From Eubacteriales bacterium (GTDB lineage: Bacteria > Bacillota > Clostridia > Oscillospirales > CAG-272): a stretch of 64,000 nt of DNA. The first letter of the stretch is position 1. Each line of letters begins with the position of its first letter. Under the pieces are notes generated by a model. The model did not search any database, was not told the DNA's origin, and saw only the letters and a program-made list of their open reading frames with translations. The position numbers were made by a program, and so were the translations under genes. This document shows, one piece after another, positions 10,968 to 22,796 of this stretch. Location of the stretch: positions 4,897 through 68,896 of the forward strand of contig JAZRDO010000023.1 in the NCBI GenBank assembly GCA_045660325.1, written 5' to 3'.

Positions 10968-11288
10968 ATGAAATTCTGTACTAATTGCGGACACGAAATA
11001 CACGACGAGGCTATCGTATGTGTTCATTGCGGTACTGCCGTCAAGACGGCTCCAGCAAACAAGCCCGTTGATGCTCCTAACGGCGGATTTACCGTGCTCG
11101 GTATTTTCGTTCCACAGGTAGCGCTTATCTTCTACATAATTTTCAAATGCAAGGGTATGCCCCTCCGCGCTCACTCCGCGGGTAAGGGCGCACTTATCGG
11201 TGGCATTATCGCATCAGTCAGCTATGCGTTCTATTATATTTACTACTTCGCCTATCTCGCGCTCTACTTCTCTCTCCTGTTCTCCTGA
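10968..11288 (+). CDS. zinc-ribbon membrane protein, paralogue 3 (short type)
   Basis: MKFCTNCG...CVHCG, LGIFVPQVALIFY, GKGALIG; GGAGG RBS. Confidence 0.88.
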   Translation: MKFCTNCGHEIHDEAIVCVHCGTAVKTAPANKPVDAPNGGFTVLGIFVPQVALIFYIIFKCKGMPLRAHSAGKGALIGGIIASVSYAFYYIYYFAYLALYFSLLFS

Positions 11289-11316
11289 ATTTGATAAAGC
11301 TTGAGGAGGTATTCAA

Positions 11317-11793
11317 ATGAAAAGCTGTGCGTTTTGCGGAAAAGAAATACACGATGAAGCAATAGTGTGTATTCATTGCAAGGAACCCGTAACTCCCCAA
11401 AAGTCCATTGAAATCAAAAGAACTAAAATCAAAAAAGTCAAGGATCCTATAAAGAAAAAGGACGTAATTTTTCTTATCCTCGGCATCATATTTCCCCTCG
11501 TCGGGCTCATACTCTATCTTGCTTTCAACAAGGAAAACGCATCTCGTAGGAGAGCCGCCAAATTAGGTATGATAATCGGATTTATTATTCTTGGCGTCAT
11601 AATCGCTATAATTATATTGCTCGTTATCATAGCCCTTATCATATTATTGATCTTGCTTTTGGCGCAGCTTTTCCTTAGAGCGTTGGCAGAGGGCCTCGCA
11701 TGGCTCGTTTACTGGATTCTTTCTGCGGTCGGATTTATATTCATTGAAATATTCTCTGCCATATTCGAGGGCATTTTCGGAGCTCTTGCTTAA
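11317..11793 (+). CDS. zinc-ribbon membrane protein, paralogue 4 (long type)
   Basis: MKSCAFCG...CIHC, LGIIFPLVGLILYL; AGGAGG RBS. Confidence 0.88.
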   Translation: MKSCAFCGKEIHDEAIVCIHCKEPVTPQKSIEIKRTKIKKVKDPIKKKDVIFLILGIIFPLVGLILYLAFNKENASRRRAAKLGMIIGFIILGVIIAIIILLVIIALIILLILLLAQLFLRALAEGLAWLVYWILSAVGFIFIEIFSAIFEGIFGALA

Positions 11794-11820
11794 AAATTAC
11801 AAATATACTCGGAGGTAATT

Positions 11821-12159
11821 ATGAAATACTGTGGAACCTGCGGTCGCAAGCTTAATGATGAGGATAACGTTTGTACTCATTGCGGCGCATTCAATATTTG
11901 TGAAGAAACAAAGCCAAAAAAGGAAAAGGTAGACGGATTCCATTTCGGTCTTGCCGTTCTCGGCTTCTTTATTCCCATGGCGGGACTTCTCTTCTATCTT
12001 CTTAGAAAGGACGAAATGCCTCTTCGCGCAAGATCTGCCGCTTGGGGCGCATTCTTCGGCTCAATACATGCCGTTGTCGTTCCTGTGATTTTTGCTTACG
12101 TCTACGTCGGACTTTACTTTGCAATTTTCATTGCCGCGGCACTTATGGGCGCGCTGTAA
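11821..12159 (+). CDS. zinc-ribbon membrane protein, paralogue 5 (short type)
   Basis: MKYCGTCG...CTHCG, LGFFIPMAGLLFYL; GGAGGT RBS. Confidence 0.88.
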   Translation: MKYCGTCGRKLNDEDNVCTHCGAFNICEETKPKKEKVDGFHFGLAVLGFFIPMAGLLFYLLRKDEMPLRARSAAWGAFFGSIHAVVVPVIFAYVYVGLYFAIFIAAALMGAL

Positions 12160-12198
12160 TTTATATGTCAATTATTTGACATATTTTTACGAAAAGTA

Positions 12199-12227
12199 TT
12201 GACAAATTATATAAAGAATGATAAACT
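12199..12227 (+). promoter_or_regulatory. sigma-A promoter of the aro/tyr/phe operon
   Basis: TTGACA-N17-TAAACT with TGn extended -10. Confidence 0.75.
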
Positions 12228-12259
12228 GTATATAATTAATAAAGAAAGCGAGAATCGTC

Positions 12260-12313
12260 ATGGCTAACATTACTTTCGCAACAGTATATTATTACTTTTA
12301 CTTTTATTGCTGA
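12260..12313 (+). CDS. Tyr/Phe-rich leader peptide MANITFATVYYYFYFYC, putative attenuator peptide
   Basis: ATG GCT AAC ATT ACT TTC GCA ACA GTA TAT TAT TAC TTT TAC TTT TAT TGC TGA: seven consecutive Tyr/Phe codons, purine-rich GAAAGCGAG upstream, placed between promoter and terminator. Confidence 0.85.
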   Translation: MANITFATVYYYFYFYC

Positions 12314-12388
12314 GCGTAATTGAGTAAAGGTGATTTTTGATGCGAAAAAAGAATTCTGATTCTTTTGTGCCATACATTTTCTAAGATA

Positions 12389-12430
12389 GGCACTCCACAG
12401 AAAAAATCCCTGTGGAGTGCTATTTTTATT
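12389..12430 (+). terminator. leader (attenuator) terminator upstream of aroF
   Basis: GGCACTCCACAG/CTGTGGAGTGCT stem then ATTTTTATT, about 20 nt before the aroF start. Confidence 0.88.
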
Positions 12431-12452
12431 ACCGTGAAAAGAGGACAGAAAA

Positions 12453-13454
12453 ATGATTGCTATTATAAGACAGGGTACAAGCAAGGAACAAATAGATAAG
12501 CTTACCGCGTGGATCGAGTCGCAGGGGCTCTCCGTGCATCTCTCCGCGGGCGAATATACTACTATCGTAGGACTTGTCGGCGACACGTCAAAGATCGACG
12601 AGGATCTTCTGCGCAGCCTTGATATCGTAGAGGCGGTAAGAAGAATTTCCGAGCCCTTCAAAAGCGCAAACAGAAAGTTCCACCCCGAAAATACAGTTGT
12701 AAACGTAGGAGACACAAGCGTCGGAGGCGACATCTTCTCGGTTATGGCAGGCCCCTGCTCCGTTGAATCCTGCGAGCAGGTAGTGGAAATTGCAAAGGCG
12801 GTCAAGGCGGCGGGCGCGACAATGCTCCGCGGCGGCGCATTCAAGCCGAGAACGTCCCCCTACGATTTCCAAGGTCTTGAAGGCACGGGCATCGAGTATC
12901 TTCTCGAGGCAAAAAAGGTTACGGGCCTTCCCATAGTTACTGAAATTATGAGCGCGCATCATCTTCCTCTCTTTGAGGACGTTGACGTAATTCAGGTCGG
13001 CGCTCGCAATATGCAGAACTTCGAGCTTTTAAAGGAGCTTGGCAGAACGAATAAGCCCATTCTCTTGAAGCGCGGTCTTTCCGCAACCATCAAGGAGTGG
13101 CTCATGTCCGCAGAATACATAATGGCGGGCGGCAACGAAAATATTATTCTCTGTGAGCGCGGAATACGTTCCTACGACTCACAGTACACAAGAAACGTGC
13201 TTGATCTCTCCTGTGTTCCCGTTCTCAAGGAGCTTACACATCTTCCCGTAATCGTCGATCCCAGCCACGCGACAGGCTCACAGAAGCTCGTTAAGCCCAT
13301 GGCTATGGCGGCTGTAGCGGCAGGCGCGCACGGTCTTATGATCGAGGTTCACAACAACCCCAAGAAAGCGCTCTGCGACGGCGCGCAGTCCCTCACTCCC
13401 GATCAGTTCTGCGACGTTATGGCGTCTGTCAGAAAGATCAGGGAATGTATGTAA
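12453..13454 (+). CDS. aroF: DAHP synthase, type I-beta, with N-terminal regulatory domain
   Basis: [51 protein letters not shown]. Confidence 0.96.
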
Positions 13455-13480
13455 AATCCCTAATAAGAGGTTAAAATAAA

Positions 13481-14329
13481 ATGAAAATCGGTATCGTCGG
13501 CTTAGGACTTATCGGCGGCTCGCTCGCGCGGGCTTACAGAGTCTATGCCGTGGAAAATTCCCAAAGCATTCAAATATTTGCAGAGAACAGAAGCAAATCC
13601 ATTCTCGACTTCGCGATCATGTCGGGTGTGGTTGACGCGCCCCTTGACGAGCGCACGATCCCCGAATGCGACATCATCTTTATCGGTCTCTACCCCGAGG
13701 CGACAATTGAATATATGGAAAAGAACGCCACACTCTTCTCAAAGGATACTATCGTTATGGACCTTTGCGGTACGAAGGCAAAGGTTTGCGAGCGCGGCTT
13801 CGCCCTTGCCAAGGAATACGGCTTTACGTTCGTAGGCGGTCACCCTATGGCGGGAACACAGTTCTCGGGATATAAGAATTCAAAGGCGGATATGTTCCGC
13901 GGCGCTCCTATGGTAATCGTTCCCCCGAGCTTTAACGATATCGAGCTTATCTCCCGCGTAAAAGAGCTTCTCCTCCCCGCAGGCTTTGGCAGATTCTCCT
14001 ACGTTGACGCCGAGCGACACGACAAGCTTATTGCCTTTACCTCCCAGCTTGCGCACGTTGTTTCAAACGCGTACGTAAAGAGCCCCACCGCCCGCGAGCA
14101 CAAGGGCTTTTCGGCAGGAAGCTACCGCGATATGACCCGCGTTGCCTGGCTCAACGAGCAAATGTGGACCGAGCTTTTCTTTGAAAACGCCGAGCCCCTC
14201 AAATTTGAAATTGACACTATTATAAACTCACTTACCGAATATCGCGACGCGCTTGAATCGGGCGACCGAGAAAAAATGCTTACCCTTTTGCGCGACGGAC
14301 GAATCGCAAAGGAACAAATTGATTCTTGA
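13481..14329 (+). CDS. tyrA: prephenate dehydrogenase
   Basis: GLGLIGGS, GGHPMAG, HDKLIAFTSQLAH, SYRDMTRVA. Confidence 0.94.
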   Translation: MKIGIVGLGLIGGSLARAYRVYAVENSQSIQIFAENRSKSILDFAIMSGVVDAPLDERTIPECDIIFIGLYPEATIEYMEKNATLFSKDTIVMDLCGTKAKVCERGFALAKEYGFTFVGGHPMAGTQFSGYKNSKADMFRGAPMVIVPPSFNDIELISRVKELLLPAGFGRFSYVDAERHDKLIAFTSQLAHVVSNAYVKSPTAREHKGFSAGSYRDMTRVAWLNEQMWTELFFENAEPLKFEIDTIINSLTEYRDALESGDREKMLTLLRDGRIAKEQIDS

Positions 14330-14342
14330 AGAGGAAAGATAA

Positions 14343-15491
14343 ATGGAGCTTAATTTATCAGAAATTCGTGAAGAAATAAATGAAATAGACCGCGAGATCG
14401 TCGAGCTTTTCAAAAGAAGAATGGCTTGCGCCTCAAGTGTTGCTCAGTATAAGGCAGAGCACGGTCTCCCCGTGCTTGACTCCGAGCGCGAGCGCGCCCT
14501 CTTGACTAAGATATGCAACCTCGCAGGCGAGGAGCTCGACACGTACGCGCTCACTCTCTACAACACGATGCTCGACGTATCAAAGGCATATCAGCACAAG
14601 ATACTTTCCGAGGATTCCGTAATTTACAAGCAGATCACGGACTCGCTTGCATCCACAAAAAAGGAATTCCCCGCCCGCGCCCGCGTGGCGTGTCAGGGAG
14701 TTGAAGGCGCATACTCGCAGATTGCCGCGACAAAGCTCTTTTCCCTGCCTAGCATCAGCTTTTATAAGACGTTTGAGAATGTTTTCGAGGCGATCGAGCG
14801 CGGAGAATGCGACTACGGTGTTCTCCCTATTGAAAACAGCACGGCGGGATCCGTAAAGCGCGTTTACGAGCTTATGCTCTCGCACAGCTTCAATATCGTG
14901 CGCTCGGTTCGTATCAAGATCGACCACAATCTTCTTGTAAATCAAGGCGTTTCCCTCGACGAGATAACCGAAATCATCTCTCACGAGCAGGCTATAAGTC
15001 AGTGCGCGTCATTCTTATCAAAGCATCCAAATATCAAGGTTACAGTTTGTCAGAATACCGCTATGGCGGCAAAAGCAGTTAAGGAAAGCGGCAGACGCGA
15101 CATAGCGGCAATATCCTCACGCGCTTGCGGTGAGCTTTATTCCCTTTCCAATATAGCTCCCTCGATTCAGGATTCGGGAAATAATCACACAAGATTTATA
15201 TGCATCGGGAAGAAGCCCGAAATATACCCCGGCGCGGATAAGATAACCCTTATGCTCGTTACTAAAAACCGCCCGGGTGAGCTCTATCGCGCGCTCTCCT
15301 GCTTCAATGCGCTCGGAATCGATATGACAAAGCTTGAATCCTGCCCTATCCCCGACCGCGATTTTGAATTTATGTTCTACTTTGACTTTACAGTTTCGGT
15401 ATATTCCGAAAAGCTTAGCGATCTTCTCTGTGAGCTTGAGGCTCGCGGCGAGGACTTCAAGCTTCTCGGCGCGTACAACGAAATCATCTGA
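14343..15491 (+). CDS. pheA: bifunctional chorismate mutase/prephenate dehydratase
   Basis: N-terminal AroQ-type CM domain (IREEINEID...RE), QGVEGAYS, PIENSTAGSV, NHTRF, C-terminal ACT domain (TKLESCP). Confidence 0.94.
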   Translation: MELNLSEIREEINEIDREIVELFKRRMACASSVAQYKAEHGLPVLDSERERALLTKICNLAGEELDTYALTLYNTMLDVSKAYQHKILSEDSVIYKQITDSLASTKKEFPARARVACQGVEGAYSQIAATKLFSLPSISFYKTFENVFEAIERGECDYGVLPIENSTAGSVKRVYELMLSHSFNIVRSVRIKIDHNLLVNQGVSLDEITEIISHEQAISQCASFLSKHPNIKVTVCQNTAMAAKAVKESGRRDIAAISSRACGELYSLSNIAPSIQDSGNNHTRFICIGKKPEIYPGADKITLMLVTKNRPGELYRALSCFNALGIDMTKLESCPIPDRDFEFMFYFDFTVSVYSEKLSDLLCELEARGEDFKLLGAYNEII

Positions 15492-15506
15492 TAAAAGGAG
15501 GAAGCT

Positions 15507-16757
15507 ATGTTAAAGACAAATAATCAAAAATGTGTTCTCATAGGCGAGAAGCTTTCGCATAGCTTTTCCCCTATCATCCACTCATATCTTGCGGATTACC
15601 CTTACACCTTAGCGGAGGTCTCCCGCGAAAATCTTGAATCCTTTGTAAAATCGGACAAATTCACCTCGGCAAACGTTACCATTCCCTACAAGGTTGAAAT
15701 TATGAAATACCTTGACGAGATATCCGACGAAGCGAGAGAGATCGGATGTGTAAACACCGTAACTCACACAAAGGACGGCAAACTGCGCGGAGACAACACC
15801 GATTTTTACGGTCTTTCCTATCTTATAAAATCCAGCGGAATTGACATTTCGGGCAAAAAGGTATTGATCCTCGGTAGCGGTGGCTCTTTCCTTACCGCAA
15901 GCGCGGTAGCAAGAAGCCTTGATGCAAAAGAAATAATTTGCATCTCCCGCAATGGCGAGGTGAATTACGAAAACGTATATAATATCCATCCCGACGCGGA
16001 TATTATTATCAACACGAGCCCCGTCGGAATGTACCCAAACAATCTTGAATGTAAAATAGACCTTGCAAAATTTGACTCGGTCAAGGGCGTTTTCGATATC
16101 GTATTCAATCCGTCCAAAACAAAGCTTCTCCTTGATGCGGAAAAGCTATTGATCCCCGCCTTCGGCGGCCTTCCAATGCTCGTAGCACAGGCAAAGCGTG
16201 CCTCGGAGATCTTCACGGGCGAGAAGATAGATGATAGCGAGATCGACAGAATCACGAAAATACTTGAAGAAACAACTCTTAATATAATCCTTGTCGGTAT
16301 GCCCGGCTGCGGCAAAAGCACAATAGCCGCTTCCCTCGCCGAAAAGCTCGGTCGCGAAATAATCGACACCGATAAGGAGATCGAACAAAACGCAAAAATG
16401 CCCATTCCCGAAATATTCTCCACCTTCGGCGAAGGTGTGTTCCGCTCGCTTGAGCATAACGAGGTCAAAAACGCGGGAAAATCAAGCGGAAAGATCATCT
16501 CCACGGGCGGCGGCGTGGTAACCATACCCGACAATTACGAGCCGCTTCATCAAAACGGAATAATTATTTTTATCAAGCGCGATATAAACAGTCTTTCGCG
16601 CGACGGAAGACCGCTTTCAATGGGTGCGGATCTCTCAAAAATGTATGCGACAAGACTCCCCATGTACGAGCGCTTTGCGGATTTTACCGTTGAAAACGAC
16701 AGCGATATTGACTCCTGCGCCGACAAAATCATAGCTTTAATCAGAGGACGAAAATGA
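15507..16757 (+). CDS. aroE: shikimate dehydrogenase-shikimate kinase fusion
   Basis: HSFSP, NVTIPYK, GDNTD in the N-terminal part; GMPGCGKST and STGGG kinase motifs in the C-terminal part. Confidence 0.92.
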   Translation: MLKTNNQKCVLIGEKLSHSFSPIIHSYLADYPYTLAEVSRENLESFVKSDKFTSANVTIPYKVEIMKYLDEISDEAREIGCVNTVTHTKDGKLRGDNTDFYGLSYLIKSSGIDISGKKVLILGSGGSFLTASAVARSLDAKEIICISRNGEVNYENVYNIHPDADIIINTSPVGMYPNNLECKIDLAKFDSVKGVFDIVFNPSKTKLLLDAEKLLIPAFGGLPMLVAQAKRASEIFTGEKIDDSEIDRITKILEETTLNIILVGMPGCGKSTIAASLAEKLGREIIDTDKEIEQNAKMPIPEIFSTFGEGVFRSLEHNEVKNAGKSSGKIISTGGGVVTIPDNYEPLHQNGIIIFIKRDINSLSRDGRPLSMGADLSKMYATRLPMYERFADFTVENDSDIDSCADKIIALIRGRK

Positions 16758-17803
16758 AAATTGTAAACGTAAACGCGTCAAGAAATTACAATATTCTCAT
16801 TGAAAACAATTTAATAGACAGCTGCGGAAAATATATTCGCGAGATAACGAAGGCAAAAAATGCGGTAATCATCACCGACGATACCGTTTTTTCGCTCTAC
16901 TGTGAGAAGGTGGAAAAATCCTTACAAGATAACGACTTTGAGGTTTTGAAGTACGTCATCCCGCACGGAGAGGACTCAAAGAGCGCGGAGAATTTTATAA
17001 AGATCCTCAACTTTTTAGCGGATAACAAGATCTCCCGCGCGGATATTATCGTAGCACTCGGCGGTGGCGTTGTCGGAGACCTTGCGGGCTTCGTTGCATC
17101 AAGCTTTTTGCGCGGAATTGAATTTGTGCAGATACCCACAACGCTTCTTTCAATGGTCGACTCCTCAGTCGGCGGAAAGACCGCAATCAATCTCGACGCG
17201 GGCAAAAACCTTGCGGGCGCGTTCTATCAGCCCTCGCTCGTTCTTTGCGATCCCAAAACGCTTGACACTCTCCCGAAGGAAATATTCTCGGACGGATGCG
17301 CCGAGGTAATTAAGTACGGTATTATCAACGATCGCCCGCTTTTCGATAAGCTCAAGGGCGGTATTGATTCAAATATTGACAGCATAATTGAAAACTGTGT
17401 AAAAAACAAGCGCGATATAGTCAACATCGACGAGCGCGACACAGGTGTGCGCCAGCTCTTAAACCTCGGTCATACTATCGCGCACACCATAGAGCAAAAT
17501 TCGGGCTTCTCTGTATCCCACGGCTCTGCGGTCTCAATCGGAATTTTATACGTTTCAAAGATCTCCAATAAAATGGGATATCTTACGGACGGCGAGCTTG
17601 CTGAAATAAAGAGCATTTTAGAGCTTTATTCTCTTCCGACCGCTTGCCCCTATACTCCCGACGAGATCCTAAGTGTTGCCGTGTCCGACAAGAAGGTCGG
17701 CTCGGGCTCAATTAATCTCGTTGTTCCCTACTCCATTGGCGACACAAGACTTATGAGGGTCGAGCTTTCGTCTCTTGGGGAAATTCTTGAGATGGGAGTG
17801 TAA
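16754..17803 (+). CDS. aroB: 3-dehydroquinate synthase
   Basis: GGGVVGD, PTTLLSMVDSSVGGKT, LNLGHT, HGSAV, DKK. Confidence 0.96.
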   Translation: MKIVNVNASRNYNILIENNLIDSCGKYIREITKAKNAVIITDDTVFSLYCEKVEKSLQDNDFEVLKYVIPHGEDSKSAENFIKILNFLADNKISRADIIVALGGGVVGDLAGFVASSFLRGIEFVQIPTTLLSMVDSSVGGKTAINLDAGKNLAGAFYQPSLVLCDPKTLDTLPKEIFSDGCAEVIKYGIINDRPLFDKLKGGIDSNIDSIIENCVKNKRDIVNIDERDTGVRQLLNLGHTIAHTIEQNSGFSVSHGSAVSIGILYVSKISNKMGYLTDGELAEIKSILELYSLPTACPYTPDEILSVAVSDKKVGSGSINLVVPYSIGDTRLMRVELSSLGEILEMGV

Positions 17804-17805
17804 AA

Positions 17806-19065
17806 ATGGATATTACTCTTAACTGTCCGAGACTTTCGGGTGAGATACGCGCTATCTCCTCAAAGAGCGAGGCGCACAGACAGCTCATCTGCGCCGCCCT
17901 CTCGGACAAGCCTACAAAAATAATTTGCTCCGACACAAGCAACGATATTGACGCGACGGTCTTATCTCTCAATGCTCTCGGCGCAAGCATAAAAAGAGTT
18001 CATGACGGCTTTACCGTTGAGCCTATAACCGTCCCTGTTTCTCCCGCGCGTCTCGACTGCGGAGAATCGGGCTCGACTCTGCGCTTTCTCATTCCCATAA
18101 TCGCGGCTCTTGGCGTTGAAGCCGAAATCACTATGCACGGAAGACTCCCAAGTCGCCCTCTCTCTCCCCTTTACGAGCTTCTCATAAACGAAGGCATCAA
18201 GATGTCGGCGCAGGGGGAAAATCCCTTTACTGTAAAGGGAAAGCTTAACGCGGGAAATTATCGCATCGCGGCGAACGTCTCCTCGCAATTTATCAGCGGA
18301 CTCCTCTTCGCGCTCTCACTTGCCGAGGGAGATTCCACGCTTACGCTTGAAGGCAAAATCGAGTCCGAAAAATATATTGATATGACTCTTGACGCCATCC
18401 GTCTTTTCGGCGGCGACATAGATTATGCGGACAGTAAATTCACCGTAAGATCAAAGGGGAAATTCACTTCCCCCGAGCTTGTAACCGTCGGCGGAGACTG
18501 GTCAAACGCGGCATTCTTTCTCTCGGCGGGAGCTTTGAGTGATTCCCCCGTAACCGTTACGGGCCTTGATATGAATTCCTCGCAGGGAGATAAAGCAATT
18601 CTCGACGCGTTATCTGGGATGGGTGCAAATATAAGCATCTGCGGCAACGCAGTAACGGTTTCAAAGAACAAACTGCGCGGAATCGAGCTTGACGCCTCGC
18701 AGATTCCCGATCTCGTGCCCATTATCGCGACAGTAGCCTCAGTTGCGGACGGCAAGACAGTAATCTACAACGCGGCGCGACTCAAAATAAAGGAAAGCGA
18801 CAGAATTCTCTCGACCTGCAATATGATATCCGCTATCGGCGGAAACATTGTTCCCACAGCCGACGGAATGATAATTTACGGTGTCGGCAGGCTTTCGGGT
18901 GGTGAGGTCAACTCCGCCCAAGACCACAGAATCGCTATGAGCGCCGCTATTGCATCCACGGTAAGTAATGATCCCGTAACTATTCGCGGATTTGAAGCTA
19001 TAAATAAATCCTACCCAAATTTCAAGTGTGATTTTGACAAATTAACCCTAAACGGAGAAAATTAA
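17806..19065 (+). CDS. aroA: EPSP synthase
   Basis: SKSEAHR, CGESGSTLRF, SSQFISGLL, KESDR, DHRIAM, KSYP. Confidence 0.96.
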   Translation: MDITLNCPRLSGEIRAISSKSEAHRQLICAALSDKPTKIICSDTSNDIDATVLSLNALGASIKRVHDGFTVEPITVPVSPARLDCGESGSTLRFLIPIIAALGVEAEITMHGRLPSRPLSPLYELLINEGIKMSAQGENPFTVKGKLNAGNYRIAANVSSQFISGLLFALSLAEGDSTLTLEGKIESEKYIDMTLDAIRLFGGDIDYADSKFTVRSKGKFTSPELVTVGGDWSNAAFFLSAGALSDSPVTVTGLDMNSSQGDKAILDALSGMGANISICGNAVTVSKNKLRGIELDASQIPDLVPIIATVASVADGKTVIYNAARLKIKESDRILSTCNMISAIGGNIVPTADGMIIYGVGRLSGGEVNSAQDHRIAMSAAIASTVSNDPVTIRGFEAINKSYPNFKCDFDKLTLNGEN

Positions 19066-19067
19066 TT

Positions 19068-20147
19068 ATGTCTACAACCTACGGAAAAAACCTTAAGCTC
19101 TCCATCTTCGGCGGCTCGCACGACGAGAAGATATTTATGACTCTCGACGGCATCCCCGCAGGACATAGGATCAATAAAGACGAGCTTATGCTCCTTATGT
19201 CTCGCAGAGCGCCGGGACAAAACAAATACTCAACACAGAGAAAAGAGCCCGATATTCCCGTATTTATCTCGGGACTTGACGAAAACAATATTACCACGGG
19301 CGAGAGGATCGAGTGCGAGATACACAACACAAATCAGCATTCATCCGACTACTCCTCACTTGTTGACGTTCCCCGTCCCTCTCACGCCGACTATGCGGCG
19401 AGAATGAAATACGGCGAGGGCGTTGACCTTCGCGGCGGCGGACATTTCTCGGGCAGACTCACGTCTCTTATGTGTGTAGCGGGCGGAATCTGTATGCAGA
19501 TACTGAAAGAACAAGGCGTTTTGATTGCATCACATATATACTCTATCGGCAACGTACAGGACGAGAAATTTGACCCCATCTCCCCCGCCGAGCAGATGTC
19601 TTGTCTTAACGGCAAGGACTTCCCCGTCATCTCCGACGAGGCAGGCGAAAAGATGAAAGCGACAATCGACCAAGCAAGACTTGACGGAGATTCGGTCGGC
19701 GGCATCGTTGAAGCTGCTATTATCGGACTTGCGGCAGGACACGGCGAGCATATATTCGACGGAATTGAGAGCAGGATCTCCTCGTTCGTATTCTCCATTC
19801 CCGCAGTTAAGGGAGTTGAATTCGGTCTTGGGTTTGGCTCGTCCGCGCTTCGCGGCTCCGAAAACAACGACGAATTCTACACCGACGGAGAAAATGTTTA
19901 CACAAAGACAAACAACTGCGGCGGAATTCTCGGCGGTATGTCAAACGGAATGCCCATCATCTTCCGCGCGGCTTTCAAACCCACGCCCTCCATTGCCAAG
20001 GAGCAAAACAGCGTTTCGCTCTCAAAAATGGAGAACGTGAAGCTAAAAATTGGCGGTAGACACGATCCCTGCGTAGTAGCTCGCGCAGTTCCCGTTGTTG
20101 AGGCAGCGGCGGCGCTTGCAATTTACGATATATTACTTGATACGTGA
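19068..20147 (+). CDS. aroC: chorismate synthase
   Basis: GGSH, RPSHAD, GGGHFSGR, GDSVGG, FKPTPSI, GRHDPC. Confidence 0.96.
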   Translation: MSTTYGKNLKLSIFGGSHDEKIFMTLDGIPAGHRINKDELMLLMSRRAPGQNKYSTQRKEPDIPVFISGLDENNITTGERIECEIHNTNQHSSDYSSLVDVPRPSHADYAARMKYGEGVDLRGGGHFSGRLTSLMCVAGGICMQILKEQGVLIASHIYSIGNVQDEKFDPISPAEQMSCLNGKDFPVISDEAGEKMKATIDQARLDGDSVGGIVEAAIIGLAAGHGEHIFDGIESRISSFVFSIPAVKGVEFGLGFGSSALRGSENNDEFYTDGENVYTKTNNCGGILGGMSNGMPIIFRAAFKPTPSIAKEQNSVSLSKMENVKLKIGGRHDPCVVARAVPVVEAAAALAIYDILLDT

Positions 20148-20157
20148 GGTGAAAGGT

Positions 20158-20592
20158 ATGAATTTTTTAATCATCAACGGTCCTAATCTCAATATGCTCG
20201 GCATCCGCGAGCCTGAGCTTTACGGAAATCAGAATTATTCTGCACTCTGCAAGCTCATAAAGAATACCTGTATTGAAAACAATATTGATTACGAGATCTA
20301 TCAGTCCAACCACGAGGGCGCCATAGTTGACAAAATTCAGGACGCGTACAATGTTTTCGACGGAATTATTATTAATCCCGCGGCGTACACACACACCTCA
20401 ATAGCAATTCTCGACGCGCTCAAGGCGGTGGGCATTCCCACAGTCGAGGTACATATTTCCGACGTGTCCAAGAGAGAGGACTTCAGACAAATCTCCTACG
20501 TTTCTCTCACGGCGGTAAAAACCTTTATGGGACTTGGTCTTGACGGATATCGCGAGGCTATACTCTATCTTAAAAATTATATCGAAAAATAA
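20158..20592 (+). CDS. aroQ: type II 3-dehydroquinate dehydratase
   Basis: INGPNLNMLGIREP, QSNHEG, NPAAYTHTS, EVHIS. Start moved to ATG 20158. Confidence 0.96.
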   Translation: MNFLIINGPNLNMLGIREPELYGNQNYSALCKLIKNTCIENNIDYEIYQSNHEGAIVDKIQDAYNVFDGIIINPAAYTHTSIAILDALKAVGIPTVEVHISDVSKREDFRQISYVSLTAVKTFMGLGLDGYREAILYLKNYIEK

Positions 20593-20593
20593 G

Positions 20594-20622
20594 AAAAAGG
20601 ACGGGTATACCGTCCTTTTTTC
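20594..20622. terminator. bidirectional terminator
   Basis: AAAAAGGACGG/CCGTCCTTTTT between convergent genes. Confidence 0.8.
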
Positions 20623-20631
20623 TTGTGAAAA

Positions 20632-21078
20632 TCAAATGAATTTCTTCATTGTCTCTACGTTCTTTTCCTCAAAGCTGATAATATCTCTTGCAAGATTTAT
20701 AGCCGTCTCCGAAACGCTTGTGTTTTCGTTCTCGCGCAAGATCTTGAGCGTATCGGTAATACCCATAGTAGAGCCCTCAACGGTCATCTGCGCCAGGTGG
20801 CTATCGCTTGAATCCATAATGGTGTTCATGGTCATTCCAATCGTAACTCCCATCTTCGCCATCATGCCCTCTTCCTTTTCCATATAGCCGAGAGCGTGAA
20901 GTCTTTCCTTGATCTTTTCCGCAAAGCGCTCATAGCCGTTCAGCTGACTTGTAAGAGCCTTTTTAAATTCGCCGTCGTCCGCCTTTTCAATTATCTTTAT
21001 CGCGGAATCCGAGCCCATTTTCATGTTCTTGTAAAGATTCTCAAGCATTGATACTTCATTCTGTACTGCCTCATTCAT
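20632..21078 (-). CDS. helical hypothetical protein, possibly ferritin-like or sporulation related
   Basis: AAGGAG RBS; upstream GTATA-N17-CAATAAT resembles a forespore sigma promoter (weak inference). Confidence 0.7.
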   Translation of the reverse strand: MNEAVQNEVSMLENLYKNMKMGSDSAIKIIEKADDGEFKKALTSQLNGYERFAEKIKERLHALGYMEKEEGMMAKMGVTIGMTMNTIMDSSDSHLAQMTVEGSTMGITDTLKILRENENTSVSETAINLARDIISFEEKNVETMKKFI

Positions 21079-21332
21079 ATACAACAATCTCCTTTTCTGA
21101 TGCTTTTTGCAAAAGAATTATTGACTGTTTTTTCAAATTATATACAACCGAAAAATCAGAAACGATTGTTCATTTTTGCTCAAAATTCCACCGTATTTGA
21201 AACATTTTTACAAAAAATTTGTTATTTTTTTGTGCAAAATCACACTTTTATATTTATACAAATTATGATATAATTAATATATATGTAGACTGATTTCAAC
21301 CACACGGCAATTCAAGAAAGGACGGTTCTTTA

Positions 21333-21845
21333 ATGTTTAACATAGGAGATTTAATAGTGTACGGCAACAACGGAGTTTACTCAGTTACCGAATATTGCAA
21401 GTCACCTGTGGATAAAAATGACACAAGGACGTTTTATTTGTTAACACCGCTTTACGAGTCTGCCAGCAATATAATTATAACTCCCTGCGATAACGTCAGA
21501 GTGTCTATGCGACATCTGATAACAAAGGACGAGGCATACTGTATTATTGACAAAATTCCCTATATTCCCGAGCTTGTTGTTGAATACGAAAAGAATCGAC
21601 GCGATAAGTATAAGGAAGCTCTCTCGTCGGGAGACCTTGAGGAATACGTAAAGATCATAAAGTCAGTTCATACAAGACGCGAAATTACAAAAATAACAAA
21701 GAAGAGACTCAGCGAGACCGATACCGAATACGAAAAGAGAGCAAAATACTGCCTTTACAGTGAATTTGCTTCCGTATTTGATATTCCGTTCAGCTCAGTC
21801 GAGGAATTTATAAACCAGAGAATTGCCGCAGAGGCAAAGGCATAG
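21333..21845 (+). CDS. CarD family transcriptional regulator
   Basis: MFNIGDLIVYGNNGVY N-terminus and C-terminal LYSEFA motif. Confidence 0.88.
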   Translation: MFNIGDLIVYGNNGVYSVTEYCKSPVDKNDTRTFYLLTPLYESASNIIITPCDNVRVSMRHLITKDEAYCIIDKIPYIPELVVEYEKNRRDKYKEALSSGDLEEYVKIIKSVHTRREITKITKKRLSETDTEYEKRAKYCLYSEFASVFDIPFSSVEEFINQRIAAEAKA

Positions 21846-21884
21846 TGCCCCTAACACCCCTCTTACAGTAATTGGAGAATTTTT

Positions 21885-22796
21885 ATGACAAGCGCCCAAA
21901 TATTGAAGAATCTCTATGCGCCCGAAAAAAAGGTCGACGTTGTTATCGACACGGATGCATACAATGAAATAGATGACCAGTTTGCAATCGCATATCTGTT
22001 AAAATCACCCTCGCAGTGTGATGTAAAGGCAATTTACGCCGCACCGTTTACAAACGACAAATCCACAGGTCCCGAGGACGGAATGCTCAAGAGCTACGCC
22101 GAGATACACAAGCTCCTCGATCTTATGGACCGAAAGGTTGACGTATTCTACGGTGCCAGAGAATATCTTAAGAGCGAGCATATTCCCGTAGAATCCGAGG
22201 CGGCGCGCGACCTTGTTGCCCGTGCGAAGAACTACACCCCCGACAATCCCCTCTACGTAGTAGGTATTGCCGCTATTACGAATATTGCATCCGCACTTAT
22301 TATGGATCCCTCGATTTGCGATAACATTGTTATCGTATGGCTCGGCGGACACGGTCGCGATTTCCACGACACAAACGAATTTAATATGAGTCAGGACATA
22401 ATCGGTGTAAACATAGTATTCAACGCTATCGTTCCCTTGATTCAGGTTCCCTGCCGAGGCGTAGCGAGTGGAGTAAGAATATCCCGCCCCGAGCTTGAGC
22501 ATTGGCTCCTCGGAAAAAATAAGCTCTGCGACTACCTCGTTCAGAACACTATTCAGGACACCGAAAAGCACTTTGCGGGCACGCCCTGGTCAAGATCAAT
22601 GTGGGACTCCTGCGCGGCGGCGTTTATTTTCAACAAAGGACACCGCACGATGGCGCCCAAGTTCGTTCACGCACCTAACGTCAGCGAAGACCTCAAATAC
22701 ATCGACAATCCCGCGGGCAAGCCCATGAACTATATTTATTATATCCACCGTGACCTCGTCATCACGGATATGATAAGAAAGCTTGCCGCACCGTAA
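21885..22796 (+). CDS. nucleoside hydrolase family protein
   Basis: DTDAYNEIDD, AITNIASAL, WLGG, EFN, WD. Confidence 0.88.
   Translation: MTSAQILKNLYAPEKKVDVVIDTDAYNEIDDQFAIAYLLKSPSQCDVKAIYAAPFTNDKSTGPEDGMLKSYAEIHKLLDLMDRKVDVFYGAREYLKSEHIPVESEAARDLVARAKNYTPDNPLYVVGIAAITNIASALIMDPSICDNIVIVWLGGHGRDFHDTNEFNMSQDIIGVNIVFNAIVPLIQVPCRGVASGVRISRPELEHWLLGKNKLCDYLVQNTIQDTEKHFAGTPWSRSMWDSCAAAFIFNKGHRTMAPKFVHAPNVSEDLKYIDNPAGKPMNYIYYIHRDLVITDMIRKLAAP

What the first reader, a model, noticed from the sequence alone, without database searches (positions are those of the whole stretch)
12199..12452. Tyr/Phe dual-sensing leader-peptide attenuator on the shikimate-Tyr-Phe operon of a Firmicute
Seen: promoter (12199-12227), then a 17-codon uORF MANITFATVYYYFYFYC (12260-12313) with seven consecutive Tyr/Phe codons and no Trp, then a strong intrinsic terminator (12389-12430), then aroF-tyrA-pheA-aroEK-aroB-aroA-aroC-aroQ, which has no trp genes. 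The control codons ATTACTTTTACTT (12291-12303) can pair over 13 bp, with G-U pairs, to GAGTAAAGGTGAT (12322-12334). GTGCCATA (near 12367-12374) can pair with the terminator 5' arm TAGGCAC, a candidate antiterminator. No T-box GGTGG..ACC consensus is present. Known: ribosome-stalling attenuators (pheL, trpL, hisL) are classical in Proteobacteria, while Firmicutes usually control aromatic genes with T-boxes or TRAP. Inference: this attenuator integrates tRNA-Tyr and tRNA-Phe charging. I know of no characterised Tyr-dominated leader peptide in Clostridia, but cannot confirm novelty without a search.
Basis: partly seen in the sequence, partly recalled or inferred. Interest (0 to 1): 0.9.

Follow-up and report, generated by a model that had tools for sequence, protein, structure and literature searches.

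The report
Tyrosine/phenylalanine leader-peptide attenuator before aroF
A 17-codon mini-gene packed with tyrosine and phenylalanine codons, followed by a switchable terminator, most likely turns the aromatic amino-acid operon of this gut-type Clostridia bacterium on when those two amino acids run short; the mechanism is classical, but this widespread family seems not to be catalogued.

Summary
Window 12199-12452 holds a promoter, the uORF MANITFATVYYYFYFYC (12260-12313), a 1:2 hairpin that buries the Tyr/Phe codons, and a -21 kcal/mol intrinsic terminator. These sit in front of aroF-tyrA-pheA-aroE/K-aroB-aroA-aroC-aroQ. No Rfam family, T-box included, matches the leader.

The element is conserved. 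It precedes aroF in 15 of 16 same-genus relatives. My covariance models match 18 of 151 genomes sampled from the order, 29 of 150 from the class, and 1 of 150 from a Bacilli-labelled class. Across 101 matched loci there are 99 distinct leader peptides. Ninety-eight start with ATG, and the median is 7 of 7 aromatic residues in the best window.

Downstream genes are aroF, pheA, tyrA, aroQ or a PF04392-type ABC transporter. Phe-only leaders sit before Phe-specific genes.

The 1:2 hairpin and the terminator covary. The antiterminator shows conserved complementarity and better cognate than non-cognate energies, but weak column covariation.

The best reading is a classical ribosome-stalling transcription attenuator (confidence 0.85). 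Sensing of both Tyr and Phe is inferred, not shown.

It is not categorically new. Corynebacterium aroR (Phe-Tyr-Phe) and two Breaker-lab uORF candidates near shikimate genes already exist. I rate it a new member of a known kind, with moderate interest.

The parts
12199..12227 (+). Promoter: -35 TTGACA (12199-12204), 17-nt spacer, extended -10 TGaTAAACT (12219-12227)
   Evidence: One search gives 10 of 12 consensus matches with TG before the -10. The motif is conserved in 15 of 15 same-genus leaders, 29-35 nt before the uORF ATG.
12243..12253 (+). Shine-Dalgarno-like AAGAAAGCGAG for the uORF, ending 6 nt before the ATG
   Evidence: Read from the sequence. Purine-rich SD regions precede the uORF in all 15 genus leaders.
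12260..12313 (+). Leader peptide gene (uORF) MANITFATVYYYFYFYC plus stop
   Evidence: The ATG is invariant in alignment A1. There are 99 distinct homologous leader peptides, 98 of them starting with ATG.
12287..12307 (+). Control codons: TAT TAT TAC TTT TAC TTT TAT (5 Tyr, 2 Phe)
   Evidence: Family-wide, the best 7-codon windows hold Tyr 393, Phe 258 and Trp 3 of 693 residues. Codons are TTT 240, TAC 215, TAT 178 and TTC 18.
12275..12303 (+). Region 1: 5' strand of the 1:2 hairpin (lower stem 12276-12280 and 12282-12284; upper stem 12291-12303), lying inside the uORF
   Evidence: MFE folds. The upper stem is 100% paired in 15 genus sequences with 2 compensatory pairs, and 96.6% paired with 5 compensatory pairs in 73 sequences.
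12322..12346 (+). Region 2: 3' strand of the 1:2 hairpin (12322-12334, 12337-12339, 12341-12345). Its GAUUUUU (12332-12338) is also the 5' strand of the antiterminator.
   Evidence: The conserved core GGUGAUUUnUGCUG appears across genus and order.
12347..12366 (+). Small A/U hairpin (AAAAGAAU-UCUG-AUUCUUUU), specific to the window's closest relatives
   Evidence: -3.3 kcal/mol. It is present in L001-L003 only among the genus leaders.
12367..12371 (+). GUGCC: second antiterminator strand, pairing with GGCAC 12389-12393. In the complete transcript's MFE, 12367-12373 instead pairs with the uORF start region.
   Evidence: duplex -9.6 kcal/mol.
12389..12430 (+). Intrinsic terminator: 5' arm 12389-12400, loop 12401-12409, 3' arm 12410-12421, U-tract 12423-12430. 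Loop bases 12402-12408 (AAAAAUC) pair with 12332-12338 in the antiterminator.
   Evidence: -21.4 kcal/mol. In 73 sequences, all 10 counted pairs of the terminator's two helices show compensatory changes. An equivalent terminator was located in 20 of 20 leaders examined.
12453..13454 (+). aroF (DAHP synthase with N-terminal ferredoxin-like domain)
   Evidence: Pfam DAHP_synth_1 1.9e-77 and DAHP_snth_FXD 2.4e-22.
13481..15491 (+). tyrA (prephenate dehydrogenase, 13481-14329) and pheA (chorismate mutase-prephenate dehydratase, 14343-15491)
   Evidence: Pfam PDH_N/PDH_C for tyrA; CM_2 + PDT for pheA.
15507..20592 (+). aroE-aroK fusion (15507-16757), aroB (16754-17803), aroA (17806-19065), aroC (19068-20147), aroQ (ends 20592; its start is uncertain, since the listed ORF begins at 20095)
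   Evidence: Pfam hits and the ORF list.

Best explanation
This is a ribosome-mediated (leader-peptide) transcription attenuator of the trpL/pheL type, and it controls the aroF-tyrA-pheA-aroEK-aroB-aroA-aroC-aroQ operon.

Transcription starts a few bases after 12227. A ribosome initiates at ATG 12260 while RNA polymerase moves on.

When charged tRNA-Tyr and tRNA-Phe are plentiful, the ribosome crosses the seven Tyr/Phe codons (12287-12307), stops at 12311-12313 and leaves. Region 1 (12275-12303) then pairs with region 2 (12322-12346). That leaves the terminator (12389-12421 plus U-tract) free to form, and transcription ends before aroF.

When either charged tRNA is scarce, the ribosome stalls on the control codons and covers region 1. 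Region 2 stays single-stranded. Its GAUUUUU pairs with the terminator loop (12402-12408), and GUGCC 12367-12371 pairs with the first five bases of the terminator's 5' arm. This happens before the 3' arm is made, so the polymerase reads through into the operon.

What is shown: the sequence elements, their conservation, the covariation of the 1:2 hairpin and the terminator, the conserved complementarity of the antiterminator, and the gene association.

What is inferred: translation of the uORF, stalling, the kinetic order of folding, and the claim that both Tyr and Phe are sensed.
For: **The window's own anatomy.** The elements and fold energies are confirmed.

**Conservation of the uORF.**
- In the same genus, 14 of 15 complete aroF loci have an ATG uORF with a Tyr/Phe run within 400 nt upstream.
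- Model R1 also finds it farther upstream in L028, giving 16 of 17 genus loci including the window. L011 has none.
- Of 13 aroF loci from 11 genomes of other families, 5 match R1 at E<=0.03.

**Wider distribution.**
- R1 matches 18 of 151 genomes sampled from the order, in 11 of 30 families.
- R2 matches 29 of 150 genomes sampled from the class, of which 27 of 29 inspected loci are genuine.
- R2 matches 1 of 150 genomes from the class of a Bacilli-labelled MAG.

**Gene association.**
- The 15 order-level loci inspected lie before aroF (12), tyrA (1) or an ABC-transporter binding protein (2).
- The 43 named loci lie before aroF (31), that binding protein (9), pheA (1) or aroQ (1); one is cut off by the locus end.
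- Pfam confirms PF04392 + permease + ATPase, PDH, CM-PDT and DHquinase_II.

**Codon content tracks the regulated gene.** Phe-only leaders (..FSFFFSF....FAFSFSFFFSF..) precede a stand-alone prephenate dehydratase and a PaaK-like CoA ligase.

**Coding constraint.**
- There are 99 distinct peptides, 98 with ATG, and the median best window is 7 of 7 aromatic.
- Codon position 1 is T in 657 of 693 codons.
- U.G wobbles at first codon positions of the stem are never replaced by C-G in the genus (pairs 34-74 and 37-71).
- The other two frames lack an ATG-initiated ORF.

**Structure.**
- The 1:2 hairpin plus terminator are 95.8% paired against 37-48% for slid controls. Fifteen of 22 pairs have compensatory changes, and 0 of 500 shuffles reach this (the alignment was fitted to this structure).
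- On the MAFFT alignment A1 the figure is 93.3% paired, with 0 of 500 shuffles reaching it.

**Antiterminator.**
- Duplexes of -7.3 to -19.2 kcal/mol form in 15 of 15 genus leaders.
- Pairing is 82-89% against 32-60% for slid controls.
- Pair 154-266 switches U-A (29) to C-G (11).
- Cognate region 2/region 3 duplexes average -15.6 kcal/mol, against -12.6 for non-cognate pairs (0 of 5000 permutations as low) and -6.9 for shuffled region 2, in 72 of 73 leaders.

**Alternatives checked.**
- No T-box or other Rfam family matches here or in 5 other members at E<=1.
- The same genome does use T-boxes elsewhere: 5 score over the cut-off.
Against: - No experiment or transcript data bears on the element.
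- Column-wise covariation of the antiterminator is weak. No pair has changes on both sides within the genus. On 73 sequences the shuffle control is not exceeded: 112 of 500 shuffles reach the observed pairing, and the covariation score is 0.119 against 0.116. Support therefore rests mainly on conserved complementarity and on an energy test that related sequences can inflate.
- In the window itself the region-2/loop duplex is the weakest of the genus (-7.3 kcal/mol).
- With region 1 masked, the thermodynamic optimum of the complete leader still contains the terminator in every case visible (that output was partly cut). Read-through must therefore be kinetic.
- The window's SD-like sequence is imperfect.
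- 40 of the 101 loci used for peptide statistics were first found with a DNA pattern that demands five Tyr/Phe codons. Both models carry the sequence of the control codons. Part of the peptide statistics is therefore by construction.
- In C. glutamicum aroR, Tyr availability had no effect, so sensing of Tyr is not assured.
Confidence: 0.85

Rival explanations
1. The conserved RNA (1:2 hairpin plus GGUGAUUUnUGCUG) is bound by a protein or a small molecule. It would act as a TRAP/PyrR-like regulator site or a riboswitch for an aromatic metabolite that sets terminator against antiterminator. The uORF would be incidental or only auxiliary.
For: - Region 2 and the terminator loop are more conserved in sequence than pairing alone needs.
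- The antiterminator shows little column covariation.
Against: - The ATG, the SD, an open frame and an aromatic-codon run are kept in 98-99 of 99 distinct leaders, while the N-terminal residues and peptide length (16-41 aa) vary freely.
- First codon positions stay U even where C would strengthen the stem.
- Codon content shifts to Phe-only before Phe-specific genes.
- The structure is a plain hairpin with no multi-stem aptamer.
- No Rfam family matches.
Confidence: 0.06
2. The nascent aromatic peptide is itself the sensor, as an arrest peptide like TnaC. Free Tyr or Phe in the ribosome tunnel would cause stalling, independent of tRNA charging.
For: The leader is a run of bulky aromatic residues. 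Forty-three of 99 leaders also carry conserved-looking tails (..KVKAICAA....SDLCC..).
Against: - The logic would be inverted for biosynthetic and uptake genes: stalling gives read-through, so abundance would induce synthesis.
- The conserved tails are explained by the RNA sequence of region 2 read in two different frames.
- In the window's genus the peptide ends 1-4 residues after the run.
Confidence: 0.03
3. It is a divergent T-box or other tRNA-binding leader that the models miss.
For: T-boxes are the usual solution in this group. The same genome has 5 over the cut-off. A genome from another family of the same order has a T-box (93.4 bits) directly upstream of its aroF (L025).
Against: - No T-box match at E<=10 over 11000-22000, nor at E<=1 in five other members.
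- The leader from the uORF to the terminator is about 170 nt. It is filled by the uORF, one hairpin and the terminator, and no stem I or T-box sequence was seen.
Confidence: 0.01
4. The element is real, but it senses only one of the two amino acids in vivo (Phe only, as in C. glutamicum aroR, or Tyr only). This is a sub-variant of the best explanation, not an alternative to attenuation.
For: - A review passage states that aroR (Phe-Tyr-Phe) responds to Phe limitation and not to Tyr availability.
- Which codon is 'hungry' depends on tRNA and synthetase levels, and those cannot be read from the sequence.
Against: - Tyr codons outnumber Phe codons (393 to 258) and both are kept in nearly all leaders.
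- The operon makes both amino acids.
- Leaders before Phe-specific genes drop Tyr, which suggests Tyr codons are functional where they are kept.
Confidence: 0.3

Closest known systems
Corynebacterium glutamicum aroR-aroF attenuator (Mentz et al. 2013, passages of PMC4046766; Neshat et al. 2014, cited in a passage of review PMC11802643; the 2014 paper itself was not read)
   Same: A leader peptide with Phe and Tyr control codons lies upstream of an aroF (DAHP synthase) operon. It works by ribosome stalling and transcription attenuation.
   Different: - aroR has only three control codons (Phe-Tyr-Phe), against 5-7 or more here, with Tyr in the majority.
- The host is an actinobacterium.
- It is reported to respond to Phe and not Tyr.
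- I had no aroR sequence, so homology was not tested.
uORFC-13-1 motif (Brewer et al. 2021, PMC8632094; section text read)
   Same: It is a uORF candidate found exclusively upstream of aroF. It has a promoter, an RBS, a start codon, a U-run encoding Phe, an adjacent intrinsic terminator and one further base-paired element. It occurs in a Firmicutes-related lineage and in environmental sequences of unknown origin.
   Different: - It is described from Acholeplasma with 24 representatives, and only 'at least one phenylalanine' codon is mentioned.
- The figure and supplementary alignment were not available to me, so identity with the present family could not be tested.
- One member of my family was found in a Bacilli-labelled class (L204, MKNINNAFAYYYFYFR, before aroB). 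The two families may therefore overlap.
Two uORF candidates associated with shikimate metabolism genes encoding F and Y (Stav et al. 2019, PMC6429828, legend of Fig. 6b only)
   Same: They are uORFs next to shikimate-pathway genes, with Phe and Tyr named as the notable residues. One of the five genomes analysed was Clostridium novyi.
   Different: Only the figure legend is in the text I could read. The source genome, sequence and structure are in a figure and supplements I could not see. No mechanism, distribution or regulon is given in the main text.
E. coli pheL-pheA and trpL attenuators (classical; Rfam Phe_leader and Trp_leader; accession numbers are recalled)
   Same: The architecture and logic match: a uORF with control codons, alternative 1:2 / 2:3 / 3:4 pairings and an intrinsic terminator.
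   Different: - They are proteobacterial and carry control codons for a single amino acid.
- There is no detectable similarity: no Rfam family matches at E<=10.
- Here the antiterminator uses the terminator loop as well as its 5' arm.
T-box leaders (RF00230)
   Same: They sense tRNA charging and control a terminator upstream of amino-acid genes in Firmicutes. One controls aroF in another family of the same order (L025).
   Different: They act by direct tRNA binding with no translation. Membership was tested here and not met.

Membership tests
Ribosome-mediated leader-peptide transcription attenuators (trpL/pheL/hisL kind) | Short translatable uORF (SD plus start codon) in the 5' leader of an amino-acid operon | tested here: met
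   ATG 12260 with an SD-like sequence at 12243-12253. The ATG is invariant in A1, and 98 of 99 distinct homologues start with ATG. Translation itself was not shown.
Ribosome-mediated leader-peptide transcription attenuators (trpL/pheL/hisL kind) | Cluster of codons for the amino acid(s) made by the operon | tested here: met
   Seven consecutive Tyr/Phe codons at 12287-12307. The operon encodes tyrA and pheA. Family-wide, 651 of 693 window codons are Tyr or Phe (partly by construction, see the Against line).
Ribosome-mediated leader-peptide transcription attenuators (trpL/pheL/hisL kind) | Intrinsic terminator between the uORF and the first structural gene | tested here: met
   12389-12430, -21.4 kcal/mol plus U-tract. 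Present in 20 of 20 leaders examined. It covaries.
Ribosome-mediated leader-peptide transcription attenuators (trpL/pheL/hisL kind) | Anti-antiterminator (1:2) hairpin whose 5' strand contains the control codons | tested here: met
   12291-12303 pairs with 12322-12334. It is 100% paired in 15 sequences and 96.6% in 73, with 2 and 5 compensatory pairs respectively.
Ribosome-mediated leader-peptide transcription attenuators (trpL/pheL/hisL kind) | Antiterminator (2:3) mutually exclusive with both 1:2 and 3:4 | tested here: inconclusive
   - Complementarity is conserved: 82-89% paired against 32-60% for slid controls.
- Cognate duplexes are more stable than non-cognate ones, with 0 of 5000 permutations as low.
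- One pair is compensatory: U-A 29 / C-G 11.
- However, the column-shuffle control is not exceeded, at 112 of 500.
- In some relatives the upper 1:2 stem and the antiterminator can coexist in the truncated fold (L005 and L007).
Ribosome-mediated leader-peptide transcription attenuators (trpL/pheL/hisL kind) | Read-through responds to charging of the cognate tRNA | not testable with these tools
   This needs starvation, reporter or Term-seq experiments.
T-box leader (RF00230) | Match to the covariance model (stem I with specifier, T-box sequence in the antiterminator), gathering score 93 bits | tested here: not met
   No match at E<=10 in 11000-22000, nor at E<=1 in 5 other members. As positive controls, 5 T-boxes score over the cut-off elsewhere in the genome, and L025 scores 93.4 bits.
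Rfam amino-acid leader families (Phe, Trp, His, Leu, Thr leaders; names recalled) | Match to any curated covariance model | tested here: not met
   No Rfam 15 family matches the leader.
uORFC-13-1 motif (Brewer et al. 2021) | Location upstream of aroF with uORF, Phe codon(s) and an adjacent terminator | tested here: met
   compared with the description read.
uORFC-13-1 motif (Brewer et al. 2021) | Fit to the published consensus sequence and structure | not testable with these tools
   The consensus is in Fig. 5F and the supplements, which were not available. No Acholeplasma sequence was at hand.

The most novel reading that the evidence does not exclude
The scaffold may be a re-programmable amino-acid sensor that has spread through Clostridia as a small regulon.

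Point changes in the control codons (UAC to UUC/UCU) would retune it from Tyr+Phe to Phe alone. That is seen before a stand-alone prephenate dehydratase and a PaaK-like ligase.

Moving the start codon by one base would expose the poly-Leu reading of the same RNA. One copy (L202) has its only SD/ATG in that frame, giving MKHISLANLFLLLLLPQEIE, in front of a xylose-isomerase-like/AMP-ligase fusion gene.

If so, one RNA fold would serve several amino-acid specificities and would be recruited to new genes.
Probability: 0.12. Interest if true: 0.65.

Novelty: new member of a known kind. Interest (0 to 1): 0.4.

Why it matters
- **Annotation.** This appears to be a common, uncatalogued cis-regulatory family in Clostridia of gut and rumen type. 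It matched about one in five genomes sampled from the class. Deposited labels include Oscillospiraceae, Acutalibacteraceae, Faecalibacterium, Ruminococcus, Papillibacter and Lachnospiraceae. A covariance model for it would annotate a stretch now left blank and would stop the leader peptide being missed or miscalled.
- **Functional predictions.** The genes it precedes suggest two testable functions. The PF04392-type ABC transporter found behind it in 13 loci is probably a Tyr/Phe importer. A PaaK-like ligase behind a Phe-only leader is probably part of a Phe supply route.
- **Regulatory evolution.** Closely related lineages solve the same problem with either a T-box or a leader peptide.
- **First Tyr-sensing case.** If Tyr-tRNA charging is truly sensed, this would be the first Tyr-responsive leader peptide shown. 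The tested Corynebacterium case responded to Phe only.

Tried and rejected
- **T-box or any Rfam family.** None matches the leader. Rejected.
- **Second copy in the window's own genome.** R1 gave one further hit (C2:1739-1864, E 0.15). It is only a terminator, with no uORF. Rejected.
- **Genome-wide scan for other leader-peptide candidates** (runs of W, H, L, F/Y, T, I, V, C, M or R in SD/ATG ORFs of 8-45 codons followed by a terminator-like hairpin). Five hits came back. Only the aroF leader is convincing. I judged the other F/Y hit (C19:94742) a chance match because of its flanks, but I did not annotate it.
- **RNAalifold on the region-2-to-loop segment of A1.** It returned no consensus antiterminator. 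I then defined the pairs from per-sequence duplexes.
- **Leu-frame reading.** In the window's genus the shifted frame reads poly-Leu but has no ATG. The script first reported that frame for L172/L174 (and for L101). Inspection showed an SD/ATG in the Tyr/Phe frame.
- **L202 follow-up.** Two orthologues of its downstream gene (L206, L207), found in 3 of 61 genomes including G323 (the genome L202 came from), have no such leader. L202 therefore stands alone.
- **Pattern scan of genome contigs.** 37 of the 80 loci returned did not match R1. In 36 of them the Tyr/Phe frame is a short stop-to-stop ORF (8-67 codons), most without a plausible start; in one it lies inside a 675-codon ORF. I treat them as chance. 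L094 was left undecided.
- **CM false positives.** L192, L194, L222 and L223 have no uORF.
- **Expression.** No RNA holder was listed for window 12150-13450.
- **Naming the organism.** The nearest named record (L073, 142 bits) is labelled only 'Eubacteriales bacterium', so the order is not named here.
- **Literature.** Eight searches (and passage look-ups) found no description of this family in Clostridia. Supplementary files were not opened, and figures are not held. The supplements of PMC8632094 and PMC6429828 may contain this very motif.
Full report
**What is in the window.**

- A sigma-70-type promoter, TTGACA-17-TAAACT with a TG extension, lies at 12199-12227 (10 of 12 matches).
- An SD-like AAGAAAGCGAG lies at 12243-12253.
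- A 17-codon ORF, ATG 12260 to TGA 12313, encodes MANITFATVYYYFYFYC. Codons 10-16 (12287-12307) are TAT TAT TAC TTT TAC TTT TAT.
- A G+C-rich hairpin, 12389-12400 / 12410-12421 with a 9-nt loop, is followed by AUUUUUAUU (-21.4 kcal/mol).
- The first long ORF starts at 12453.

Pfam assigns the eight downstream ORFs to DAHP synthase, prephenate dehydrogenase, chorismate mutase-prephenate dehydratase, a shikimate dehydrogenase-shikimate kinase fusion, dehydroquinate synthase, EPSP synthase, chorismate synthase and type II dehydroquinase. There are no trp genes.

The leader folds far better than shuffles: -62.3 kcal/mol, z -5.8, 0 of 200. That pairing is extended by 12276-12284 with 12337-12345 into a -22.6 kcal/mol hairpin.

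An Rfam scan with permissive thresholds found nothing in the leader.

In the whole 1.68-Mb genome (45.5% G+C) only two runs of seven or more F/Y occur in any frame, and the other is YFFFFFF.

**Conservation near home.**

A search of 40 relatives with the AroF protein gave 30 loci. Fourteen of the 15 complete same-genus loci have an ATG-initiated ORF with a Tyr/Phe run within 400 nt upstream of aroF, for example MHSSIFTFAYYYFYYFQA and MFSSEKAFAYFYFYYFYEK. L011 has none.

A covariance model built from the 15 genus leaders (A1, R1) also found the element farther upstream in L028. That makes 16 of 17 genus loci, counting the window.

The promoter motif TTGACA...TGnTAnAnT is present in 15 of 15, 29-35 nt before the ATG.

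In loci of other families of the order, R1 matched 5 of 13 at E<=0.03. One of the others, L025, has a bona fide T-box (93.4 bits) in the same place.

**Distribution.**

- R1 matched 18 of 151 genomes drawn from the order, the window's genome included, in 11 of 30 families.
- All 15 newly inspected loci have a Tyr/Phe-rich uORF starting at the model's ATG. They lie before aroF (12), tyrA (1) or a lipoprotein of ABC_sub_bind type (2).
- One scan of the named genome collection, with a pattern taken from the control codons and region 2, returned at least 119 stretches. Of the 80 loci I examined, 43 match R1 at E<0.01. I treat the other 37 as chance hits.
- The 43 are MAGs labelled Oscillospiraceae, Acutalibacteraceae, Faecousia, Papillibacter, Faecalibacterium, Ruminococcus, Clostridia/Clostridiales/Eubacteriales, three Lachnospiraceae and one Erysipelotrichaceae. 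These labels are as deposited.
- Downstream of the 43 are aroF (31), the binding protein (9), pheA (1), aroQ (1) or the locus end (1).
- A second model from 73 aligned members (A2, R2) matched 29 of 150 genomes drawn from the class. Of 29 inspected loci, 27 are genuine: 24 before aroF, 2 before the binding protein and 1 before pheA.
- R2 matched 1 of 150 genomes in the class of a Bacilli-labelled MAG (L204, MKNINNAFAYYYFYFR, before aroB).
- R2 matched 10 of 101 genomes in the family of a Lachnospiraceae-labelled MAG.
- The window's genome has one copy only. It uses T-boxes elsewhere, with 5 over the cut-off.

**The peptide.**

Over 101 matched loci there are 99 distinct leader peptides of 16-41 residues, and 98 begin with ATG. 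The best 7-codon window is 7 of 7 aromatic in 68, 6 of 7 in 23 and 5 of 7 in 8. It holds 393 Tyr, 258 Phe and 3 Trp of 693 residues. Codons are TTT 240, TAC 215, TAT 178 and TTC 18.

Forty of these loci were pre-selected by a pattern requiring such codons, and the models also encode them. The numbers therefore overstate independence.

Three points are independent of that bias.
- The N-termini and peptide lengths vary freely.
- The shifted frames (poly-Leu, or Ile-Thr-Phe) have no ATG in the genus.
- U.G wobbles at first codon positions in the stem are never turned into C-G.

Codon content also follows the regulated gene. Leaders with Phe and Ser but no Tyr (L218, L219) precede a stand-alone prephenate dehydratase and a PaaK-like AMP-binding ligase.

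**Alternative structures.**

The 1:2 hairpin and the terminator are well supported.
- On the MAFFT alignment of the genus, 93.3% of cells pair, against 37-53% with slid partners. Eight pairs have changes on both sides, and 0 of 500 shuffles reach the pairing or the covariation score.
- On 73 sequences, 95.8% pair, 15 of 22 pairs are compensatory, and 0 of 500 shuffles reach this. That alignment was fitted to the structure.

The antiterminator came from masking a stalled ribosome's footprint and withholding the terminator's 3' arm. Region 2 (GAUUUnUGCUG...) then pairs with the end of the 5' arm and the terminator loop. That explains why the loop (CAGUAAAGUCGCUG and variants) is conserved.
- Duplexes of -7.3 to -19.2 kcal/mol form in 15 of 15 genus leaders.
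- With fixed columns, 89% (genus) and 82% (73 sequences) of cells pair, against 32-60% for slid partners.
- The shuffle controls are not exceeded, however. Only one pair is clearly compensatory (U-A 29, C-G 11).
- An alignment-free test gives cognate duplexes at -15.6 kcal/mol, non-cognate at -12.6 (0 of 5000 permutations as low) and shuffled region 2 at -6.9, in 72 of 73 leaders. L088 was dropped because its terminator was not aligned. Relatedness of the sequences can inflate this test.

In the window the loop duplex is the weakest of the genus (-7.3). The combined pre-terminator fold is -15.9 kcal/mol.

With region 1 masked, the complete leader still prefers the terminator thermodynamically. 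As in the classical cases (from my recollection of the trp leader energies), the switch must be kinetic.

Two layouts exist.
- In 52 of 99 leaders the stop codon lies within 5 codons of the run, in the hairpin loop as here.
- In 43 of 99 the ORF runs on through region 2, so a non-stalled ribosome would cover region 2 directly.

**Mechanism.**

Taken together this is a leader-peptide attenuator. Stalling at Tyr/Phe codons frees region 2, which pre-empts the terminator. Unhindered translation lets the 1:2 hairpin form, or covers region 2, and the terminator fires. I put this at 0.85.

The rivals fit the coding constraints, the regulatory logic or the model searches less well. They are a protein- or ligand-binding RNA with an incidental ORF, an arrest peptide sensing free amino acid, and a cryptic T-box.

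Whether both amino acids are sensed is open. A review passage says the Corynebacterium aroR leader (Phe-Tyr-Phe) responds to Phe limitation and not to Tyr.

**Comparison with what is known.**

The kind is classical. Aromatic examples in print are:
- E. coli pheL and trpL;
- C. glutamicum aroR upstream of aroF;
- the uORFC-13-1 candidate upstream of aroF in Acholeplasma and environmental sequences;
- two uORF candidates near shikimate genes encoding F and Y, mentioned in a figure legend of a study that included Clostridium novyi.

Leader-peptide attenuators for His and Leu have been predicted or described in Firmicutes.

I could not see the figures or supplements of the two Breaker-lab papers, so this family may already sit in their alignments. 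It is not in Rfam 15. Eight full-text searches found no description of it in Clostridia.

I therefore file it as a new member of a known kind. It is real, widespread and useful for annotation and for predicting a Tyr/Phe transporter, but it is not mechanistically surprising.

**Limits.**

- There is no experimental or transcript evidence.
- The organism is an unnamed MAG.
- Genome samples are draws, so the fractions are not prevalences.
- Related sequences are not independent.

Noticed in passing
L025:2587-2853 (- strand), a genome from another family of the same order: A T-box leader (RF00230, 93.4 bits, just over the gathering score) sits directly upstream of that genome's aroF. Related lineages therefore use either a T-box or the leader peptide at the same gene. 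I did not read its specifier codon.
   Followed up: partly
L202 (G323:C133:3765-3903, - strand): This copy of the RNA scaffold (67 bits) has its only SD/ATG in the shifted frame, giving MKHISLANLFLLLLLPQEIE. It lies before a xylose-isomerase-like TIM barrel + AMP-binding fusion gene. The Tyr/Phe frame has no start codon. Two orthologues of the gene lack any such leader.
   Followed up: partly
L218 and L219 (family of a Lachnospiraceae-labelled MAG): These are Phe/Ser-only leaders. MIMRNLVFTTASFSFFFSFTSDRCKGVL precedes a stand-alone prephenate dehydratase followed by a DAHP synthase. MNKTHSFAFSFSFFFSFTDDDGRVDLRC precedes a PaaK-like ligase (AMP-binding + AMP-binding_C_2). L220 (..YSFFSYWYFYF..) precedes an HMGL-like protein.
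   Followed up: partly
L043, L045, L055, L056, L066, L076, L077, L081, L088, L101, L120, L172, L174: The same Tyr/Phe leader precedes an ABC transporter: a PF04392 ABC_sub_bind lipoprotein, a BPD_transp_2 permease and an ABC_tran ATPase. This predicts a Tyr/Phe uptake system. L088's genome carries this transporter copy (84 bits); its only other R2 match (32.8 bits, E 0.002, L203) has no uORF.
   Followed up: partly
window 12287-12307 and all same-genus leaders: Shifted by two bases, the control region reads as a run of Leu codons (for example ..SILLLLLLLLSVIE). Shifted by one base it reads Ile-Ile-Thr-Phe-Thr-Phe. Neither frame has an ATG in the genus.
   Followed up: yes
window 12163-12188: A perfect 9-bp inverted repeat, ATATGTCAA-TTAT-TTGACATAT, is followed by TTTT. 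It lies between the stop of the upstream zinc-ribbon gene (12159) and the -35 box. It is probably that gene's A/U-rich terminator, though an operator is not excluded. It is not seen in the nearest relatives' upstream regions.
   Followed up: no
window 12260-12264 with 12369-12373: In the minimum-free-energy fold of the complete leader, the uORF start codon region (AUGGC) pairs with GCCAU, which overlaps the GUGCC antiterminator strand. Similar 5'-end pairings appear in several relatives' folds. This may add a 'no translation, so terminate' default.
   Followed up: no
99 leader peptides: There are two layouts. In 52 leaders the stop codon lies within 5 codons after the aromatic run. In 43 the ORF continues 9 or more codons through region 2, giving recurrent tails such as ..KVKAICAA.. 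or ..SDLCC... These tails are the conserved RNA GUGAUUUGUGCUGC read in two frames.
   Followed up: partly
window 12453-12653 and 15507-16757: AroF carries an N-terminal ferredoxin-like domain (PF18152), which is often regulatory. aroE and aroK are fused into one 416-aa ORF.
   Followed up: no
window 20579-20635: A strong bidirectional terminator-like hairpin lies right after aroQ. It was picked up only as weak sub-threshold Rfam matches to terminator-containing sRNA families, and it marks the operon end.
   Followed up: no
L011 (same genus, G001): This is the one same-genus aroF locus without the leader. Its upstream region is G+C-rich and different, and no Rfam family matches it at E<=0.01.
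   Followed up: no
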